Source of the DNA: a phage
Direction: 5' to 3' (one strand)
Length of the DNA: 64,000 nt
NCBI GenBank assembly: GCA_012490745.1
Contig: GCA_012490745.1_3925.1
Both the position numbers and the translations under genes were made by a program. Below, one piece after another: positions 42,783 through 47,733 of the stretch (the first letter of the stretch is position 1; each line of letters begins with the position of its first letter). The notes beneath the pieces were generated by a model that was given only the letters and a program-made list of their open reading frames with translations, was not told the DNA's origin and searched no databases.

Positions 42783-42860
42783 TCTCTGTTTAGCTCAGCT
42801 TGGTAGAGCGTTCCGTTTGGGGCGGTAAGGCCGGAGGTTCAAGTCCTCCAACAGAGACCA
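42783..42860 (+). tRNA. tRNA-Pro (anticodon TGG)
   Basis: Cloverleaf: acceptor TCTCTGT/ACAGAGA, anticodon loop TTTGGGG, T-arm GGAGG-TTCAAGT-CCTCC, CCA encoded. Confidence 0.7.
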
Positions 42861-42867
42861 AATTAAT

Positions 42868-42945
42868 GTTCCAGTAGACAAAATGGTAAAGTCACCACTC
42901 TTTCAAAGTGGATATCTGAGGGTTCAAATCCCTTCTGGAACGCCA
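42868..42945 (+). tRNA. tRNA-Glu (TTC)
   Basis: Acceptor GTTCCAG/CTGGAAC; anticodon stem CCACT/AGTGG, loop CTTTCAA; T-loop TTCAAAT; CCA encoded. Confidence 0.75.
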
Positions 42946-42952
42946 GTTTTGA

Positions 42953-43025
42953 CAGAAGACCAATTACAGCAAACTTAATCTTATTCATCTGAAGGTAAAT
43001 CGGACAAAGAAGAGATTTGGTCTGG
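42953..43025 (+). ncRNA. structured element copy 1 (CAGAAGACC box ... GGTCTGG)
   Basis: 5' box CAGAAGACCAATTACAGCAAA, 3' ATTTGGTCTGG; ends can pair; between tRNA-Glu and tRNA-Met. Confidence 0.4.
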
Positions 43026-43036
43026 TCATTAAGAAT

Positions 43037-43113
43037 TGCGGGTATAGAGAAAGGGCGTCTCACATGTCTCATTAGCATGGTATCGGCAGGTTCGACTCCT
43101 GCACCCGCCTCCA
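43037..43113 (+). tRNA. tRNA-Met (CAT); position 1:72 unpaired, possibly initiator-like
   Basis: Anticodon stem CATGT/GCATG, loop CTCATTA; T-arm GCAGG-TTCGACT-CCTGC; acceptor TGCGGGT/ACCCGCC with 1-72 mismatch. Confidence 0.6.
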
Positions 43114-43119
43114 ATTTTG

Positions 43120-43179
43120 CAGAAGACCGTATTCAGCAACAAAATACTTTTTGCGGATAAAAGAAAAAACACGGTCTGG
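43120..43179 (+). ncRNA. structured element copy 2
   Basis: CAGAAGACCGTATTCAGCAAC ... ACGGTCTGG; pairing nucleotides co-vary relative to copy 1. Confidence 0.4.
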
Positions 43180-43190
43180 CAATGTATTAA

Positions 43191-43267
43191 GGTTAGGAAG
43201 CACATAAGGTATGTGCGGTCGCCTGTTAAGCGAATGGCACAGGGTTCGAATCCCTGACTAACCGCCA
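43191..43267 (+). tRNA. tRNA-Asn (GTT)
   Basis: Anticodon loop CTGTTAA; T-arm CAGGG-TTCGAAT-CCCTG; CCA encoded. Confidence 0.75.
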
Positions 43268-43276
43268 AATTTAAAT

Positions 43277-43364
43277 GTGTCGTTATCCCGTAGATGGTAG
43301 CGGTGGGGACTGTAAATCCCTTGTCATTGAGACTCGGTAGGTTCGACTCCTACACGGCACACCA
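43277..43364 (+). tRNA. tRNA-Tyr (GTA), long variable arm
   Basis: Anticodon stem-loop GGGGA-CTGTAAA-TCCCT; variable arm about 14 nt; T-arm GTAGG-TTCGACT-CCTAC. Confidence 0.7.
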
Positions 43365-43370
43365 AATAAA

Positions 43371-43448
43371 GGTTATGTAGTTTAATCTGGTTAAAATACT
43401 CCCCTGTCACGGGAGATGATGAGGGTTCAAATCCCTTCGTAACCGCCA
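43371..43448 (+). tRNA. tRNA-Asp (GTC)
   Basis: Anticodon stem CTCCC/GGGAG, loop CTGTCAC; T-loop TTCAAAT; CCA. Confidence 0.8.
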
Positions 43449-43535
43449 AATTATAATAAGTATTTCAAAATGATGTTTGAGAGGGCTATTTTAGCCCCTC
43501 CCTTAAAGAGTTCTTACGAGTATTCTTTAAAGGAG

Positions 43536-43614
43536 CAGAAGACCAAATTCAGCAAGTACGTATGATATTTTCAAGCCAATTTAATTTTGAAAAAATTTAT
43601 AAAACTTGGTCTGG
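43536..43614 (+). ncRNA. structured element copy 3
   Basis: CAGAAGACCAAATTCAGCAAG ... CTTGGTCTGG. Confidence 0.4.
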
Positions 43615-43627
43615 CTCAACAATTTTA

Positions 43628-43759
43628 CAGAAGACCGTTTACAGCAAAACTTAAACAATCTATTTCTCCGGTAAAGAAAAGGCGAAGGTTCGATTCCTTC
43701 ACTCGGCAGATGTCGAGTTGGTGTAATGGTAGCACTTAAGATGATAAACAACGGTCTGG
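43628..43759 (+). ncRNA. structured element copy 4 enclosing a tRNA-like module
   Basis: CAGAAGACCGTTTACAGCAAAA ... AACGGTCTGG (perfect 8-bp end pairing); interior has T-arm GAAGG-TTCGATT-CCTTC, then ACTCGGC and GTCGAGT (complementary, acceptor-like) and a D-arm-like TGGTGTAATGGTAGCAC. Confidence 0.45.
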
Positions 43760-43762
43760 TAA

Positions 43763-45715: not shown

Positions 45716-45720
45716 ATTTT

Positions 45721-45796
45721 GCAGGATTAGTTCAAATGGATAGAGCAACAGTCTACGAAGCTGTTAATAGGGGTTCGAATCCCTTATCCTGCGCCA
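45721..45796 (+). tRNA. tRNA-Arg (ACG)
   Basis: Perfect acceptor GCAGGAT/ATCCTGC; anticodon loop CTACGAA; T-loop TTCGAAT. Confidence 0.8.
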
Positions 45797-45815
45797 ATTT
45801 AAAGAGGCTATTTAG

Positions 45816-46373
45816 ATGAGATATTTGAAGTATGCTTCATGGATTTTCTTAGCTTTGTTAGAGCCATTTGCAGCAATCTTAGCAGTTATCTTAGCACCTT
45901 TTGTAGTTCCATTCTACAGTGAGAAGAAAGGACACTTACCTTTCGGGTTCAGATGGATGGAGACATATGACAACCCAATTGATGGTGATGAAGGTCACGT
46001 TAAAAGATGGGCTAATATTAGATGGATTGGTAAACTAGGTGTCTACATGCAAAGAGTCGGATGGCTCTGGAGAAACAAAGCTTATAACTTCTCTTACCAT
46101 GTATTAGGAAGAGATGTAAGAGATGTTACTAAGTGGAAAGGTAATATCAACGTAAGTTCTGACCCCGAAGATAATCAGACAGGTTATCTCCTAATGTGGA
46201 ACAGTAATGCTTGGGGATTATTCGCTTTTATCCCATCAATTAAAATCTTTGGTAAACAGTTTTACTGGAGAATTTATATTGGATGGAAACTTAAAAGTGT
46301 TGTCCCAGAAGAAAGAGCATTCTCAAGGGAAAGAGTTATGTTGGCATTCTTTATTCATCCACTGAGAAAGTAA
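45816..46373 (+). CDS. hypothetical membrane protein embedded in tRNA array
   Basis: 185 aa; SD AGAGG 9 nt upstream; N-terminal hydrophobic helix (IFLALLEPFAAILAVILAPFVV). Confidence 0.5.
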   Translation: MRYLKYASWIFLALLEPFAAILAVILAPFVVPFYSEKKGHLPFGFRWMETYDNPIDGDEGHVKRWANIRWIGKLGVYMQRVGWLWRNKAYNFSYHVLGRDVRDVTKWKGNINVSSDPEDNQTGYLLMWNSNAWGLFAFIPSIKIFGKQFYWRIYIGWKLKSVVPEERAFSRERVMLAFFIHPLRK

Positions 46374-46381
46374 AGATTTAA

Positions 46382-46457
46382 AGGGGATTAGTTTACAAGG
46401 TTAAAACCTCGGTCTTTGAAATCGAAGAAGTTGGTTCAATTCCAACATCCCCCGCCA
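46382..46457 (+). tRNA. tRNA-Gln (TTG)
   Basis: Anticodon stem TCGGT/ATCGA, loop CTTTGAA; T-arm GTTGG-TTCAATT-CCAAC. Confidence 0.7.
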
Positions 46458-46459
46458 AT

Positions 46460-46538
46460 GCTCCATTACTCCAATTGGCAGAGAGGCCAGACTTAAAATC
46501 TGTGTTATGTATCGGTTCGAATCCGATATGGAGTACCA
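46460..46538 (+). tRNA. tRNA, anticodon TAA (Leu?) with short variable arm, identity uncertain
   Basis: Acceptor GCTCCAT/ATGGAGT; anticodon loop CTTAAAA; T-arm ATCGG-TTCGAAT-CCGAT. Confidence 0.5.
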
Positions 46539-46543
46539 AATTT

Positions 46544-46619
46544 AGCGGTATAGCATAACTGGCAATGCAACAGTCTCTGAAGCTGTCCTATTAAGGTTCA
46601 AATCCTTATGCCGCTGCCA
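46544..46619 (+). tRNA. tRNA-Gln (CTG)
   Basis: Anticodon stem ACAGT/GCTGT, loop CTCTGAA; T-arm TAAGG-TTCAAAT-CCTTA. Confidence 0.6.
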
Positions 46620-46650
46620 CTTCTAAGGATTCTTACGAGAGTCCTTAAAT

Positions 46651-46726
46651 GTGGCCTTATCATAAAAGGTAATGACCCATGCTGTGAACATGGTCTATAC
46701 GGGTTCAAATCCCGTAGGTCACCCCA
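46651..46726 (+). tRNA. tRNA-His (GTG)
   Basis: Anticodon stem CCATG/CATGG, loop CTGTGAA; T-arm ACGGG-TTCAAAT-CCCGT. Confidence 0.8.
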
Positions 46727-46731
46727 ATTTA

Positions 46732-46808
46732 TAGTCCAAGTAGCTTATATGGTTAAAGCGCGTGTCTGAAAAACATGAGAAGAGGGTTCAAATCCCACTG
46801 GACTACCA
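46732..46808 (+). tRNA. tRNA-Phe (GAA)
   Basis: Anticodon stem CGTGT/ACATG, loop CTGAAAA; T-loop TTCAAAT. Confidence 0.7.
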
Positions 46809-46824
46809 ATTTCAAAGGTGCTTA

Positions 46825-47559
46825 ATGAAAGAGATGACAGAACAAGGTAAGGAGATTTTTAATCTCTTAAAAACTGGTAAAGGGTTTTCTAACCCCCTTA
46901 TTACTGGTGCAGCAGTTCTCGGTGGAACCGTAGCTGCCTCTACATCACTTGTAAGCTCTATTAGCTCTGTATCAGACCCTACAGTAAAGGATAAGCTTGT
47001 TGCTGCTGGACTTACAACAGTTCTGCTTAACAGCTTTACCACGAGTCTGACAAGCACTACATCAACTACCAAAACACTAACAGATTACGGTCAAAAGTCC
47101 ATTGATGAGTTTTCATCACGTATGCAGGTAGCAAAAGGTTATTCTAATGTTATGGGTGCAGCAGGTGAACAAGTTGGCTGTACACCATTTAGTGGTATTA
47201 TGGGTGTTGCTACAGAGTATGGTCAAAAAGCTATTGATACGATTAACAGTACACTAGATAGTGTTAATGGTGTGTTAAGTGACTTACAAGATGCTATTGA
47301 TAAGGGTCTTGATACTGTTTCTGATTTAGCTAATCAGGCTGTTAGCAAGATTAATGAAGGTATCTCAAAGATTACAGCTTATGCAGATGAAGTTGTGCAG
47401 ATGATTGAAGAAGAAGCTGCCCTTATTGCAGAGTACCTTAAAACGAATATCAATGGGTTCTTAGCAGGTATCTTACCAGACTGGTTTGATGATGCTTGTA
47501 AAACTGGTGTGATTGACACTATTGCAACACCAGAAATGAAGAACGCATTACAGAAATAA
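46825..47559 (+). CDS. hypothetical Ser/Thr-rich protein
   Basis: About 244 aa from ATG 46825 (SD AAAGG); the track start 46762 would overlap tRNA-Phe. Confidence 0.45.
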   Translation: MKEMTEQGKEIFNLLKTGKGFSNPLITGAAVLGGTVAASTSLVSSISSVSDPTVKDKLVAAGLTTVLLNSFTTSLTSTTSTTKTLTDYGQKSIDEFSSRMQVAKGYSNVMGAAGEQVGCTPFSGIMGVATEYGQKAIDTINSTLDSVNGVLSDLQDAIDKGLDTVSDLANQAVSKINEGISKITAYADEVVQMIEEEAALIAEYLKTNINGFLAGILPDWFDDACKTGVIDTIATPEMKNALQK

Positions 47560-47560
47560 T

Positions 47561-47653
47561 GGAAGATTAACCCTAAAAGGTAAGGGAGCAGTTTGCTAAA
47601 CTGCCAGTAGCTGAGAAATCGGTGTACCAGTTCAAGTCTGGTATCTTCCTCCA
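47561..47653 (+). tRNA. tRNA-Ser (GCT), class II
   Basis: Perfect acceptor GGAAGAT/ATCTTCC; anticodon stem GCAGT/ACTGC, loop TTGCTAA; long variable arm; T-arm TACCAG-TTCAAGT-CTGGTA. Confidence 0.8.
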
Positions 47654-47657
47654 ATTT

Positions 47658-47733
47658 GAATCCGTGACAGAAATGGCTATGTGCCTGTCTGCAAAACAGG
47701 TTTATAAGGGTTCGAGTCCCTTCGGATTCTCCA
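47658..47733 (+). tRNA. tRNA-Cys (GCA)
   Basis: Perfect acceptor GAATCCG/CGGATTC; anticodon stem CCTGT/ACAGG, loop CTGCAAA; T-arm AAGGG-TTCGAGT-CCCTT. Confidence 0.8.

What the first reader, a model, noticed from the sequence alone, without database searches (positions are those of the whole stretch)
42783..47733. About 27 tRNA genes apparently covering all 20 amino acids, several with non-canonical features
By manual cloverleaf reading the array provides anticodons for Pro, Glu, Met (two CAT genes), Asn, Tyr, Asp, Lys (TTT, CTT), Ile, Arg (ACG and possibly TCT), Trp, Ser (TGA, GCT), Leu (TAG, CAA, TAA), Ala, Gly, Thr, Val, Gln (TTG, CTG), His, Phe, Cys. Oddities: the three Leu-anticodon genes lack the long variable arm expected of bacterial tRNA-Leu; both Lys tRNAs share a bulged nucleotide in the T-stem; the Arg(TCT) candidate (44391-44473) lacks a normal D-arm; the Trp candidate (44615-44699) has about 7 extra nt before the D-arm; one CAT tRNA has an unpaired 1:72. 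A complete set suggests buffering against host tRNA depletion or cleavage (anticodon nucleases), not just codon-bias compensation.
Basis: partly seen in the sequence, partly recalled or inferred. Interest (0 to 1): 0.55.

Follow-up and report, generated by a model that had tools for sequence, protein, structure and literature searches.

The report
Phage tRNA operon with rewired tRNAs
This is the well-known tRNA gene cluster of a Felix O1-like E. coli phage, but two of its 27 tRNAs (for arginine and tryptophan) have conserved, non-cloverleaf architectures that public annotations miss and that complete the set to all 20 amino acids.

Summary
ARAGORN finds 25 tRNA genes at 42784-47733, all on the + strand, all with encoded CCA, and none elsewhere in the window. 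The window is a Felixounavirus, whose tRNA cluster is already known (17-26 tRNAs reported).

The two odd candidates are not pseudogenes. The Arg(UCU) element (44391-44472) belongs to a family found in 263 phage records across unrelated lineages. It shows near-perfect covariation (99% paired, 15 of 20 pairs with compensatory changes) and an invariant AGR anticodon. It almost always replaces a canonical tRNA-Arg(UCU). Its D-arm appears rewired.

The Trp(CCA) element (44616-44698) is conserved across Ounavirinae, with compensatory changes in all four stems. It is the 20th amino acid that published counts miss.

The three Leu tRNAs without a long variable arm, the bulged T-stem in both Lys tRNAs and the 1:72 mismatch in one CAT tRNA are all conserved.

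The array also holds four Y-RNA-like RNAs. They lie downstream of a DUF2828 gene whose predicted fold is Ro60.

That the set makes phage translation self-sufficient is plausible. Evasion of anticodon nucleases is untested.

The parts
41203..42618 (+). DUF2828/DUF7788 protein (471 aa) with a predicted Ro60-like fold (HEAT ring plus vWA domain), immediately upstream of the array
   Evidence: Pfam and PHROG hits. AF2 model with pLDDT 88 and pTM 0.87. The top 11 Foldseek PDB hits are all Ro60/TROVE. MIDAS residues D279, S281, S283, T349 and D381 are invariant.
42637..42757 (+). Two tandem sigma-70-like promoter matches (42637-42665 and 42728-42757) ahead of the first tRNA
   Evidence: 10 of 12 matches each. 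Consensus matches only.
42784..42860 (+). tRNA-Pro(UGG)
42868..42945 (+). tRNA-Glu(UUC)
42951..43027 (+). Y-RNA-like element 1: outer helix GAC/GUC, internal loop AGA/G, inner helix AGACCAA/UUGGUCU, then the ACAGCAA motif
43037..43113 (+). CAU tRNA with initiator-like acceptor stem: U1xC72 mismatch, G2-G6 as in E. coli tRNA-fMet, U37, U73
   Evidence: The 1:72 mismatch is conserved as UxC, AxC and CxC across lineages. Rfam's tRNA model does not detect it.
43118..43181 (+). Y-RNA-like element 2 (outer helix UGC/GCA, inner helix AGACCGU/ACGGUCU)
43191..43267 (+). tRNA-Asn(GUU)
43277..43364 (+). tRNA-Tyr(GUA), with long variable arm
   Evidence: It falls below the Rfam tRNA gathering score.
43371..43448 (+). 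tRNA-Asp(GUC)
43534..43616 (+). Y-RNA-like element 3 (outer helix AGC/GCU, inner helix AGACCAA/UUGGUCU)
43626..43761 (+). Y-RNA-like element 4, resembling YrlA. A closing helix encloses a permuted tRNA-like module: T-arm, then a closed acceptor hairpin, then a D-arm.
   Evidence: The MFE fold gives exactly this cloverleaf. Perfect T-arm at 43688. Compensatory change in the acceptor hairpin in Sf17 and EcSzw-2. The architecture matches YrlA as described in PMC4201824.
43909..43984 (+). tRNA-Lys(UUU), T-stem with a bulged pyrimidine
43989..44065 (+). Second CAU tRNA (elongator Met or Ile2; identity unresolved), U73
44067..44142 (+). tRNA-Ile(GAU)
44158..44186 (+). Internal sigma-70-like promoter match (TTGACA, 17-nt spacer, TATAGT; 11 of 12)
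44391..44472 (+). Non-canonical tRNA-Arg(UCU): normal acceptor, anticodon and T arms. There is no D hairpin. A 3-bp D-like stem (CUC/GAG) encloses the anticodon arm, and a D-loop-like strand UAAGUGGAGUAU precedes the T-stem.
   Evidence: Rfam 31.7 bits. Family found in 263 phage records and 45 IMG/VR loci. Covariation on alignment A3. Compensatory CGC/GCG and CAC/GUG variants of the D-like stem.
44616..44698 (+). Non-canonical tRNA-Trp(CCA): invariant insert AUGUUAAG(A) after the acceptor stem, 3-bp D-stem, C31xA39, probably an 8-bp acceptor and 4-bp T-stem, G73
   Evidence: ARAGORN -mt. Present in 236 Ounavirinae records. Alignment A4 has 8 of 20 pairs with compensatory changes.
44712..44801 (+). 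tRNA-Ser(UGA)
45059..45136 (+). tRNA-Leu(UAG), short variable loop, A73
45144..45219 (+). tRNA-Lys(CUU), T-stem with a bulged pyrimidine
45226..45301 (+). tRNA-Ala(UGC)
45308..45382 (+). tRNA-Gly(UCC)
45389..45465 (+). tRNA-Thr(UGU)
45562..45636 (+). tRNA-Val(UAC)
45638..45715 (+). tRNA-Leu(CAA), short variable loop, Leu-type D-loop CAAUUGGCAGA, A73
45721..45796 (+). tRNA-Arg(ACG)
45816..46373 (+). ORF inside the array, DUF7338 (185 aa, membrane protein; labelled 'holin' in one record)
46382..46457 (+). tRNA-Gln(UUG)
46460..46538 (+). tRNA-Leu(UAA), short variable loop, Leu-type D-loop, A73
46544..46619 (+). tRNA-Gln(CUG)
46651..46726 (+). tRNA-His(GUG)
46733..46808 (+). tRNA-Phe(GAA)
46825..47559 (+). 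ORF inside the array, DUF7217 (244 aa, predicted membrane protein)
47561..47653 (+). tRNA-Ser(GCU)
47658..47733 (+). tRNA-Cys(GCA)
47896..47913 (+). Terminator-like hairpin followed by a T run, downstream of the last tRNA

Best explanation
The region is the tRNA operon of a Felix O1-like (Felixounavirus) coliphage. It is probably transcribed rightwards from sigma-70-like promoters at about 42.64, 42.73 and 44.16 kb. Host enzymes then presumably process the transcript into 27 tRNAs that already carry CCA.

Twenty-five tRNAs are ordinary enough for standard software. Two are structurally non-canonical but under strong purifying selection as tRNAs.

(i) tRNA-Arg(UCU). The 5' strand of the D-stem plus the D-loop (GAG-U-AAnUGGAGUA, including the A20-like base that ArgRS uses) appears to have moved into the variable region. 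The 3'-strand equivalent (CUC) sits directly before the anticodon arm. The result is a 3-bp helix that stacks on the anticodon stem, and a GG-containing strand that can still reach the T-loop.

(ii) tRNA-Trp(CCA). It carries a 7-9-nt invariant insertion after the acceptor stem. It probably has an 8-bp acceptor stem and a 4-bp T-stem, and an unpaired 31:39.

Together the 27 genes give at least one decoder for each of the 20 amino acids. They are biased towards the A/U-ending codons this 39% GC phage prefers. That lets late-gene translation run largely on phage tRNAs.

Shown here: gene content, conservation, covariation, anticodon constancy, replacement of the canonical Arg(UCU) gene, and codon usage. 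Inferred: transcription and processing, charging by host ArgRS, TrpRS and LeuRS, use on the ribosome, and the three-dimensional model of the rewired core.
For: Identity of the phage and synteny: 97.9% identity to Escherichia phage EcoM2, with 237 phage records covering at least 80% of the array.

The 25 standard tRNAs.

nc-Arg:
- It is present in 263 phage records, including Felixounavirus, Asteriusvirus 121Q, Justusliebigvirus phi92, Sugarland-like, Klebsiella, Serratia, Vibrio and Streptomyces phages. It is also in 45 IMG/VR loci.
- Across 31 distinct sequences, 99.2% of cells are paired and 15 of 20 pairs show double changes. The covariation score is 0.78, against 0.19 for shuffles and at most 0.14 for slid controls.
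- RNAalifold independently recovers the acceptor, anticodon and T stems.
- The anticodon loop is always CUUCUAA/C, or once UUCCUAA, so the anticodon is always an AGR decoder.
- Of 20 loci with at least 15 tRNAs, only one has another Arg(UCU). In that locus the non-canonical copy carries CCU.
- Other Felixounaviruses hold a canonical tRNA-Arg(UCU) at the same locus.
- The D-like stem covaries: CUC/GAG, CGC/GCG and CAC/GUG.

nc-Trp:
- It is present in 236 records, against 23 with a canonical allele.
- Eight of 20 pairs have double changes among 7 sequences, against 0 in the slid controls.
- It has G73, A1-U72 and the CUCCAAA loop, like E. coli tRNA-Trp (for the sequence; the E. coli features are from my own knowledge and PMC9976931).

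Codon demand: AGA is 40% of Arg codons and there are 169 TGG codons.

Function of Felixounavirus tRNAs in vivo: PMC12269064 and bioRxiv 10.64898/2026.09.17.752456.
Against:
- nc-Trp is rejected by bacterial-mode ARAGORN and falls below Rfam thresholds.
- nc-Arg folds no better than shuffled sequence (z = 0.04). This is common for tRNAs.
- The D-like stem rests on only two independent compensatory events. RNAalifold prefers a small alternative hairpin in the 23-nt region.
- nc-Trp diversity is low (7 distinct sequences).
- One locus (L027) carries nc-Arg and a canonical Arg(UCU) side by side, so the two are not strictly interchangeable.
Confidence: 0.8

Rival explanations
1. The Arg(UCU)-like and Trp(CCA)-like elements are decayed tRNA pseudogenes or chance tRNA-like sequences. 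The real set then has 25 tRNAs for 19 amino acids, as published for related phages.
For: Public annotations omit them, or call them tRNA-OTHER, pseudo, Leu, Val or TERM. ARAGORN's default mode misses both. The Sf14 paper counts 19 amino acids (PMC12482277).
Against: Both show near-perfect base pairing with many compensatory changes. Their anticodon loops are invariant. Each has an encoded CCA in the same context as its neighbours. nc-Arg is shared by unrelated phage families at 82-90% identity. nc-Trp is retained from E. coli phages to Pectobacterium phages.
Confidence: 0.04
2. The two non-canonical elements are tRNA mimics rather than adaptors. They could be decoys or sponges for tRNA-targeting nucleases or modification enzymes, or further partners of the Ro60-like protein. 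On this reading they are not used in decoding.
For: The same array contains a bona fide tRNA-like module that is clearly not an adaptor: Y-like element 4, whose acceptor stem is closed. Bacterial Y RNAs mimic tRNA (PMC4201824). The core architecture deviates from what E. coli enzymes normally see. According to PMC11551756, all known bacterial tRNAs are canonical.
Against: Both have open 5'/3' acceptor ends with a discriminator and CCA. The anticodons are strictly conserved (UCU/CCU and CCA). The discriminators suit ArgRS (A/G73) and TrpRS (G73). There is an A20-like base after GG. nc-Arg is complementary in distribution to canonical Arg(UCU) in arrays that are otherwise complete. Neither has an ACAGCAA motif or a Y-type closing helix.
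Confidence: 0.15
3. The main selective reason for the array, and for the odd structures, is escape from host tRNA-targeting defences such as anticodon nucleases, D-loop- or acceptor-cutting retron effectors, PARIS and VapC. Supply and codon matching would be secondary.
For: - The set is complete, so it could replace the host pool.
- The deviations sit at sites where known nucleases act. Arg has no D hairpin, and type I-A retron effectors are reported to cut D-loops (PMC12916289). The initiator-like CAU tRNA has a changed anticodon stem-loop, and VapC targets tRNA-fMet (PMC12482277). Both Lys tRNAs have altered T-stems.
- Phage tRNAs are known to evade such systems (PMC10264068; Azam 2024, cited in PMC12916289).
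- Most Felixounavirus species escape retron Eco2 (PMC12916289).
Against: The Sf14 study argued against nuclease escape for a sister phage, though it considered only anticodon loops and assumed there is no initiator tRNA. Roughly half of Felixounaviruses carry a canonical Arg(UCU) instead. No defence system specific for tRNA-Arg(UCU) or tRNA-Trp is known to me.
Confidence: 0.25
4. The canonical and non-canonical alleles are by-products of homing-endonuclease traffic. HNH genes invade the array and drag linked tRNA variants along. The odd sequences persist because they remove endonuclease target sites in the DNA.
For: HNH or HNH-like ORFs are inserted at various points of the array in relatives. 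The canonical Trp allele is followed by a 134-aa ORF with weak HNH matches. Serratia phage Kamaji has an HNH gene right after its nc-Arg.
Against: This does not explain the RNA-level covariation. It does not explain conservation of nc-Arg in many phages with no adjacent HNH gene, or conservation of nc-Trp across the subfamily. The window itself has no HNH gene in the array. At most it explains how alleles spread, not why they are kept.
Confidence: 0.1

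Closest known systems
tRNA gene clusters of Felix O1-like phages (Ounavirinae), and large phage tRNA arrays in general (T5, T4, mycobacteriophage cluster C)
   Same: Same locus, gene order and sequence as in hundreds of deposited Felixounavirus genomes. Published counts are 17-26 tRNAs (PMC8300805, PMC12482277).
   Different: Two further genes are normally not annotated, and they raise coverage from 19 to 20 amino acids. 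The array also contains non-tRNA structured RNAs.
D-arm-lacking mitochondrial tRNAs (for example metazoan mt-tRNA-Ser(AGY))
   Same: No D hairpin between the acceptor and anticodon stems. Only a short connector is present. The acceptor, anticodon and T arms are intact.
   Different: nc-Arg keeps D-loop-like sequence (AAnUGGA) and a 3-bp D-like helix, but in permuted order inside a 23-nt 'variable' region. It occurs in phages of bacteria, where all known tRNAs were said to be canonical (PMC11551756). It would have to work with unadapted bacterial ArgRS, EF-Tu and ribosomes.
tRNA-Sec and allo-tRNAs with 8/5, 9/4 or 8/4 acceptor/T-stem geometry
   Same: nc-Trp can form an 8-bp acceptor stem and a 4-bp T-stem (12 bp in total). 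Its best Rfam hit is the tRNA-Sec model.
   Different: The anticodon is CCA and the variable loop is short. It lacks the 6-bp D-stem of tRNA-Sec. It has a unique invariant 7-9-nt insert. The eighth acceptor pair is invariant, so it is untested by covariation.
Class II bacterial tRNA-Leu
   Same: A73, Leu-type D-loop (A14 A15 .. G18 G19. A20a), U48, and anticodons UAG, CAA and UAA. These are the elements E. coli LeuRS needs (PMC9976931).
   Different: There is no long variable arm. The review cited says this arm is present in tRNA-Leu of all organisms and organelles except animal mitochondria (PMC9976931).
Ro60 (Rsr)-Y RNA modules of bacteria and phages (YrlA/YrlB; Thermus phage phiLo Ro60 with Yrl1/2)
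   Same: A gene with a Ro60 fold lies next to several small RNAs, each closed by a 5'/3' helix with an internal loop. One of them has a permuted tRNA-like domain, as in YrlA (PMC4201824, PMC12135203).
   Different: The protein matches Pfam DUF2828/DUF7788 and returned no TROVE match, and it has no sequence hit to any PDB Ro60. The conserved RNA motif is ACAGCAA after the helix, not GNCGAAG. No Rfam Y-RNA model matches. The RNAs are embedded in a tRNA operon.

Membership tests
Canonical tRNA (cloverleaf; Rfam RF00005) | Detected by a standard tRNA finder or reaches the Rfam gathering score | tested here: met
   ARAGORN finds 25. Rfam finds 24 at or above 29 bits, including nc-Arg at 31.7 bits. 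nc-Trp, Met 43037 and Tyr 43277 do not reach the RF00005 gathering score.
Canonical tRNA (cloverleaf; Rfam RF00005) | D hairpin (3-4-bp stem plus loop with G18 G19) located between position 9 and the anticodon arm | tested here: not met
   This applies to nc-Arg only. Seven nt (UAUCUCA) separate the acceptor and anticodon stems. The GG-containing D-loop-like strand lies after the anticodon arm. The other 26 genes, including nc-Trp, have a D hairpin in place.
Canonical tRNA (cloverleaf; Rfam RF00005) | 7-bp acceptor stem, 5-bp anticodon stem with 7-nt loop and 5-bp T-stem with TTCRANN loop, all supported by covariation | tested here: met
   nc-Arg meets all three. nc-Trp has acceptor and anticodon stems, but its T-stem is 4 bp (or 5 bp with an AxC mismatch) and 31:39 is unpaired.
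Functional tRNA-Arg for E. coli ArgRS | C35, U36 or G36, A20 in the D-loop, A/G73 | tested here: inconclusive
   C35 and U36 are invariant. Position 73 is A or G in 30 of 31 sequences (C in L035). An invariant A follows the GG (UGGA), as A20 would. Whether that A is presented like A20 cannot be tested here. The identity rules are from my own knowledge and PMC9976931.
Functional tRNA-Trp for E. coli TrpRS | Anticodon CCA, G73, acceptor-stem pairs | tested here: met
   The CCA anticodon and G73 are present in all 7 sequences. Position 1:72 is A1-U72 or G1-U72, or G1-C72 in Arno162. Charging itself cannot be tested here.
Class II tRNA-Leu | Long variable arm (more than 10 nt, forming a stem-loop) | tested here: not met
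   The variable loops are 4-7 nt in all three genes. This holds in every Ounavirinae lineage examined and in the unrelated locus L177.
Class II tRNA-Leu | LeuRS identity set: A73, A15:U48, G18 G19, A20a | tested here: met
   Read directly from the sequences. The requirement is stated in PMC9976931.
Bacterial initiator tRNA-fMet (for CAU tRNA 43037-43113) | Mismatch at 1:72 | tested here: met
   UxC in the window, AxC in Arno162 and CxC in EcSzw-2. Positions 2-6 are GCGGG, as in E. coli tRNA-fMet (E. coli sequence from my own knowledge).
Bacterial initiator tRNA-fMet (for CAU tRNA 43037-43113) | Three consecutive G:C pairs at 29-31:39-41 of the anticodon stem | tested here: not met
   The stem reads C-G, A-U, U-A, G-C, U.G. 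I therefore do not file it as an initiator, only as initiator-like.
Ro60/TROVE proteins | HEAT-repeat ring plus C-terminal vWA domain with a MIDAS site | tested here: met
   The AF2 model matches Ro60 structures over their full length (TM 0.5-0.64, probability 1.00). DxSxS, T and D are invariant. This rests on a predicted structure only.
Ro60/TROVE proteins | Sequence match to Pfam TROVE or to solved Ro60 proteins | tested here: not met
   Pfam gives only DUF2828 and DUF7788. phmmer against PDB finds no Ro60.
Y RNA / YrlA | Encoded next to the Ro60 gene; 5'/3' ends form a helix with an internal loop or bulge; YrlA has a tRNA-like domain whose acceptor stem is closed | tested here: met
   Across 75 diverse loci the motif is enriched on the gene strand near the gene.
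Y RNA / YrlA | Conserved GNCGAAN0-1G motif, or a match to Rfam Y_RNA or YrlA | tested here: not met
   The motif here is CAGAAG...ACAGCAA. There is no Rfam hit at these coordinates. Binding to the protein cannot be tested here.

The most novel reading that the evidence does not exclude
nc-Arg is a naturally occurring, fully functional tRNA with a permuted core. Half of the D-arm (5' strand plus D-loop) has been transposed into the variable region. Unmodified E. coli ArgRS, EF-Tu and ribosomes would nevertheless charge it and use it to read AGA/AGG. It has spread by horizontal transfer through many unrelated phage families. It would be the first non-cloverleaf tRNA working in a bacterial translation system, joined in Ounavirinae by a second one, the insert-bearing 8/4-type tRNA-Trp. 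The same operon would carry a new, widespread class of Ro60-like (DUF2828) RNPs with ACAGCAA-motif Y-like RNAs.
Probability: 0.45. Interest if true: 0.8.

Novelty: new variant of a known kind. Interest (0 to 1): 0.62.

Why it matters
- Annotation. Counts of '19 amino acids' or '17-26 tRNAs' for Felix O1-like phages understate the set. The phages appear to carry a decoder for every amino acid. This bears on models of phage independence from the host tRNA pool, and on virus-resistance strategies that rely on recoding hosts, which Felixounaviruses already defeat through their own tRNAs.
- tRNA biology. A rewired tRNA-Arg conserved in hundreds of phages of enterobacteria, Vibrio and Streptomyces would show that bacterial translation tolerates non-cloverleaf adaptors in nature. 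Until now this was explored only by directed evolution (PMC11551756). It would also supply a ready-made scaffold for orthogonal tRNAs.
- Leucine tRNAs. Leu tRNAs without a long variable arm contradict a textbook generalisation.
- Ro60-like module. The adjacent Ro60-like/Y-like RNA module suggests that phage tRNA operons also encode RNA-surveillance or RNA-protection RNPs.

Tried and rejected
- Intron readings. ARAGORN with introns gave nothing new at default settings. At a lowered threshold it read 44391-44472 as Tyr(AUA) with a 6-nt intron. I rejected this because the CUUCUAA loop and its stem covary as an anticodon arm.
- Alternative cloverleaves in public records for nc-Arg homologues: Leu(UAA) in 121Q, Val(AAC) in Yaboi, TERM in 7t3. 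Current ARAGORN does not reproduce them, and they are incompatible with the covariation.
- Small hairpin in the 23-nt region (RNAalifold). I kept it only as an alternative. It has no double changes and one break. The D-like stem has two double changes and no break.
- Rfam at E <= 10 for the spacers. Only sub-threshold hits appeared (tmRNA_permuted 28.8 bits against 47, several miRNA models, YrlA 17 bits over His/Phe). I treat them as chance.
- Sequence search of the DUF2828 protein against PDB found nothing relevant. The fold search was needed.
- The 14-mer GGGACGATGTTAAG scan of IMG/VR returned mostly chance hits. After filtering, only Ounavirinae copies of nc-Trp remained.
- A scan of 185,579 bacterial and archaeal genomes for the nc-Arg pattern gave one MAG contig. 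I found no evidence of a cellular origin.
- Three literature searches for D-arm-less or non-canonical phage tRNAs, one for short-arm phage tRNA-Leu and one for DUF2828 found no description of these features. The library is incomplete.
- The Nyerges et al. 2023 paper, which has tRNA-seq of REP phages, could not be retrieved.

Full report
**1. What is there**

ARAGORN finds 25 tRNA genes between 42784 and 47733, all on the + strand, and none in the remaining 59 kb of the window. Rfam's tRNA model passes 24 matches at its gathering score. These include an extra one at 44391-44469 (31.7 bits, the Arg-TCT candidate), but not Met 43037 or Tyr 43277. The Trp candidate is found only by ARAGORN's mitochondrial mode (44616-44698, anticodon CCA) and weakly by the tRNA-Sec model (23 bits). 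All 27 carry an encoded CCA followed by an A/T-rich spacer. A scan for perfect T-arm motifs finds no further hidden tRNA. It finds one tRNA-like module at 43688, discussed in section 6.

**2. Where it comes from**

The region is 96-98% identical to Felixounavirus genomes (EcoM2, AYO145A, wV8-like). In all, 237 phage records cover at least 80% of it. Deposited annotations list 20-25 tRNAs here and never call Arg(UCU) or Trp at these two positions. Where something is annotated, it is 'tRNA-OTHER', 'tRNA' or a wrong isotype. Published counts for the genus are 17-23 tRNAs (PMC8300805). [quoted passage not shown] The array as such is therefore already known.

**3. The Arg(UCU) element is a real, widespread, non-canonical tRNA family**

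*Distribution.* BLAST with the 88-nt element finds it in 263 phage records. Beyond Felixounaviruses, these include jumbo Asteriusviruses (121Q, PBECO4), Justusliebigvirus phi92, Sugarland-like and KB57-like Klebsiella phages, a Demerecviridae Serratia phage, a Vibrio phage and Streptomyces phages. A degenerate pattern that left the anticodon arm free found 45 IMG/VR loci. The same pattern found only one contig among 185,579 prokaryotic genomes.

*Covariation.* In 31 distinct sequences (alignment A3) the acceptor, anticodon and T stems differ freely but stay complementary. Of all cells, 99.2% are paired, and 15 of 20 pairs show compensatory double changes. The covariation score is 0.78, against 0.19 for shuffles (0 of 500 reach it) and at most 0.14 for slid partners. 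RNAalifold recovers the same three stems on its own.

*Anticodon and niche.* The anticodon loop is CUUCUAA/C in 30 sequences and UUCCUAA in one. The anticodon is therefore always UCU or CCU. In 20 loci with at least 15 detectable tRNAs, a canonical Arg(UCU) is absent in 19. The exception is the locus whose non-canonical copy reads CCU. In Felixounaviruses such as JohannRWettstein, JK55 and typing phage 15, and in Mooglevirus, the very same locus holds a normal 77-nt tRNA-Arg(UCU). AGA is the commonest Arg codon in this window, at 242 of 604 (40%). All of this is what one expects of the phage's AGR decoder. It is not what one expects of a pseudogene.

**4. Anatomy of nc-Arg**

After the 7-bp acceptor stem comes the invariant UAUCUCA, then the anticodon arm. 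Next comes the invariant CGUUAAYCGAGUAANUGGAGUAU, then the T-arm. In the two most divergent members the CUC changes together with the first GAG: CGC/GCG in Streptomyces phage Yaboi and CAC/GUG in a Vibrio phage. This indicates a 3-bp helix that encloses the anticodon arm.

The strand that follows, A-A-n-U-G-G-A-g-U-A, reads like an Arg-type D-loop (A14 R15. U G18 G19 A20. A21). For comparison, the canonical allele has AAUUGGAUA.

My inference is that the 5' strand of the D-stem and the D-loop have been transposed to the variable region. The 3'-strand equivalent has stayed in front of position 26 and the anticodon arm. The local contexts (strand-26-anticodon stem, and strand-D-loop) are kept and only the connectivity changes. 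An L-shape with a D-loop/T-loop contact therefore remains conceivable.

This model rests on two compensatory events and on sequence resemblance. RNAalifold's alternative is a 3-bp hairpin inside the 23 nt, and I cannot exclude it. [quoted passage not shown] Three literature searches found no description of this family.

**5. The Trp(CCA) element**

It is present in 236 phage records, all Ounavirinae or likely relatives. Divergence reaches 75% identity in Pectobacterium phages. It is never annotated. Seven distinct sequences (alignment A4) give 99.3% paired cells. Eight of 20 pairs have double changes, spread over all four stems, against none in any slid control.

The best model has:
- an 8-bp acceptor stem and a 4-bp T-stem, or alternatively 7/5 with an AxC mismatch;
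- an invariant insert AUGUUAAG(A);
- a 3-bp D-stem with an 8-nt GG-containing loop;
- an anticodon loop CUCCAAA closed by an unpaired C31xA39 (or CxC);
- discriminator G73.

G73, A1-U72 and the loop sequence match E. coli tRNA-Trp (my own knowledge; PMC9976931). Twenty-three records (wV8, typing phages 11, 12 and 15) instead carry a canonical 71-nt tRNA-Trp at the same spot. It is followed by a 134-aa ORF with weak HNH matches. The non-canonical form is therefore the majority form and the deeply conserved one. It supplies the amino acid that published counts report as missing.

**6. The other oddities**

*Leu tRNAs.* All three have 4-7-nt variable loops. The same holds in every Ounavirinae lineage examined and in an unrelated 143-kb phage contig. 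Anticodon stems and acceptor stems show compensatory differences. They keep A73, a Leu-type D-loop (CAAUUGGCAGA: A14 A15 .. G18 G19. A20a) and U48. These are the elements E. coli LeuRS requires. The long arm is dispensable for charging (PMC9976931). They are therefore probably Leu acceptors. They also contradict the generalisation that only animal mitochondria lack the long arm (same review).

*Lys tRNAs.* Both read best with a T-stem G-A-(Y)-G-G-G/C-C-C-U-C. The bulged base is the one that varies, U or C.

*First CAU tRNA.* It has a mismatch at 1:72 in every lineage, although nucleotide 1 varies (U, A or C against C72). Positions 2-6 are GCGGG, as in E. coli tRNA-fMet, and it has a conserved U37 and U73. 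It lacks the three G:C pairs of initiator anticodon stems, so I call it initiator-like only. This matters because the Sf14 study dismissed VapC evasion on the ground that no initiator tRNA is encoded (PMC12482277).

**7.

*Four Y-RNA-like elements.* Four elements share the scheme: outer helix, internal loop AGA/G, inner helix AGACC(NN), (W)UWCAGCAA, variable body, (N'N')GGUCU-G, outer helix. They lie at 42951-43027, 43118-43181, 43534-43616 and 43626-43761. Both helices covary between copies. The fourth encloses a permuted tRNA-like module: T-arm, closed acceptor hairpin, D-arm. This is the YrlA architecture (PMC4201824).

*A Ro60-like gene.* The gene just upstream (41203-42618, DUF2828+DUF7788, PHROG 'RNA-binding protein') gives a confident AF2 model (pLDDT 88). 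Its 11 best PDB matches are all Ro60/TROVE proteins, including the Thermus phage phiLo Ro60. It has an invariant MIDAS motif.

*Co-occurrence.* The RNAs co-occur with the gene in Felixounavirus, Mooglevirus and Suspvirus. They are absent from the 8-kb Arno162 stretch examined, which contains no such gene. In 75 diverse IMG/VR loci encoding homologues at 38-47% identity, ACAGCAA occurs 113 times on the gene strand and 38 times on the other (about 32 expected). Of the 99 extragenic copies, 61 lie within 600 nt of the gene. A closing helix of at least 7 bp is present in 48%, against 16-23% of controls. In contig L177 five such RNAs, three of them with tRNA-like modules, separate the gene from a 14-tRNA array.

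I read this as a divergent Ro60/Y-RNA system. No Rfam model matches it, and DUF2828 is absent from the Ro60 literature I could search.

*Other structured spacers.* Some spacers fold far better than shuffled sequence: 43758-43907 (z = -6.1), 44960-45060 (z = -4.8) and 45466-45561 (z = -3.8). I did not follow them up.

**8. How it most likely works**

Sigma-70-like promoter matches precede the array (42637, 42728) and sit inside it (44158). A terminator-like hairpin follows it. These are consensus matches only. By inference, the RNAs are made as polycistronic precursors and cut by host RNase P and 3' nucleases. The encoded CCA spares the need for CCA addition.

The anticodon set gives near-complete decoding with 27 genes: one U34 tRNA per four-codon box, G34 and U34 (plus three C34) for split boxes, ACG plus UCU for Arg, and CCA for Trp. 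It is tuned to a genome with GC3 of 0.33. Only CGG (2% of Arg codons) and perhaps AUA lack an obvious reader.

This fits supply and self-sufficiency during late infection (PMC12482277). Felixounaviruses can infect a host lacking tRNA-Ser(UGA), and the phage-encoded tRNA-Ser(UGA) is held responsible for infection of that host (PMC12269064; bioRxiv 10.64898/2026.09.17.752456). Whether the odd structures add resistance to tRNA-targeting defences is open. Such systems cut anticodon loops and stems, D-loops and acceptor stems (PMC12916289, PMC10264068), so the idea is reasonable. It is untested, and about half of the genus manages with a canonical Arg(UCU).

**9. Verdict**

The array is known.

The value added is threefold:
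- two conserved, unannotated, non-cloverleaf tRNAs, one of them a family spread across many phage lineages;
- a subfamily-wide set of short-arm Leu tRNAs;
- a Ro60-like/Y-like RNA module inside the operon.

None of these has functional data here. The decisive experiments are listed in the next-steps field.

Noticed in passing
41203-42618 and 42951-43761 (four elements); also loci L053-L055, L177, L178, L185-L259: A DUF2828/DUF7788 protein with a predicted Ro60 fold lies next to four small RNAs. Each is closed by covarying helices and carries a conserved ACAGCAA motif. One has a YrlA-like permuted tRNA domain. The gene-motif association holds across 75 diverse phage loci. This looks like an undescribed branch of Ro60/Y-RNA systems that often sits beside phage tRNA arrays.
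   Followed up: yes
43037-43113: The first CAU tRNA has a 1:72 mismatch that is conserved while nucleotide 1 varies. Its acceptor stem resembles E. coli tRNA-fMet, and U37 and U73 are conserved. It lacks initiator-type G:C pairs in the anticodon stem. Rfam's tRNA model does not see it at all. It may be a phage initiator-like tRNA, which is relevant to VapC-type toxins.
   Followed up: partly
43758-43907, 44960-45060, 45466-45561, 44474-44615: Spacers between tRNAs fold into long, very stable structures (z = -6.1, -4.8, -3.8 and -2.05 against shuffles). The first has a closing stem of about 25 bp. They may be RNase III-type processing sites or further ncRNAs.
   Followed up: partly
43498-43535, 44351-44385, about 46620-46650: A short palindromic hairpin motif recurs next to tRNAs and Y-like RNAs: CUUUAAAG..UUCUnAcGAG..CUUUAAAG. 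Its function is unknown; it could be a processing or termination signal.
   Followed up: no
43581-43856 (-) and 44212-44352 (-): Small minus-strand ORFs are annotated as hypothetical proteins in relatives (for example AYO145A_047 and AYO145A_048). They overlap the Y-like RNAs and a structured spacer on the opposite strand. They are probably not genes.
   Followed up: no
L004 293-697, L001 4283-4696, L055 4449-4901, L058 384-672: Relatives carry HNH or HNH-like endonuclease ORFs inserted at different points of the array, and canonical versus non-canonical Arg and Trp alleles alternate at fixed loci. The tRNA operon seems to be a hotspot for homing-endonuclease-driven cassette exchange.
   Followed up: partly
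L178 1279-2391 and 3001-4431: In one metagenomic phage contig the DUF2828 (Ro60-like) gene lies one ORF downstream of a T4 Rnl1-type RNA ligase gene. This hints at a link to tRNA/RNA repair, as with the rsr-rtcBA operon of Salmonella.
   Followed up: no
45816-46373 and 46825-47559: Two conserved membrane-protein ORFs (DUF7338 and DUF7217) are embedded between tRNA genes. They keep their position across Felixounavirus, Mooglevirus and Suspvirus, and the second probably also in Arno162. One record labels the first 'holin'.
   Followed up: no
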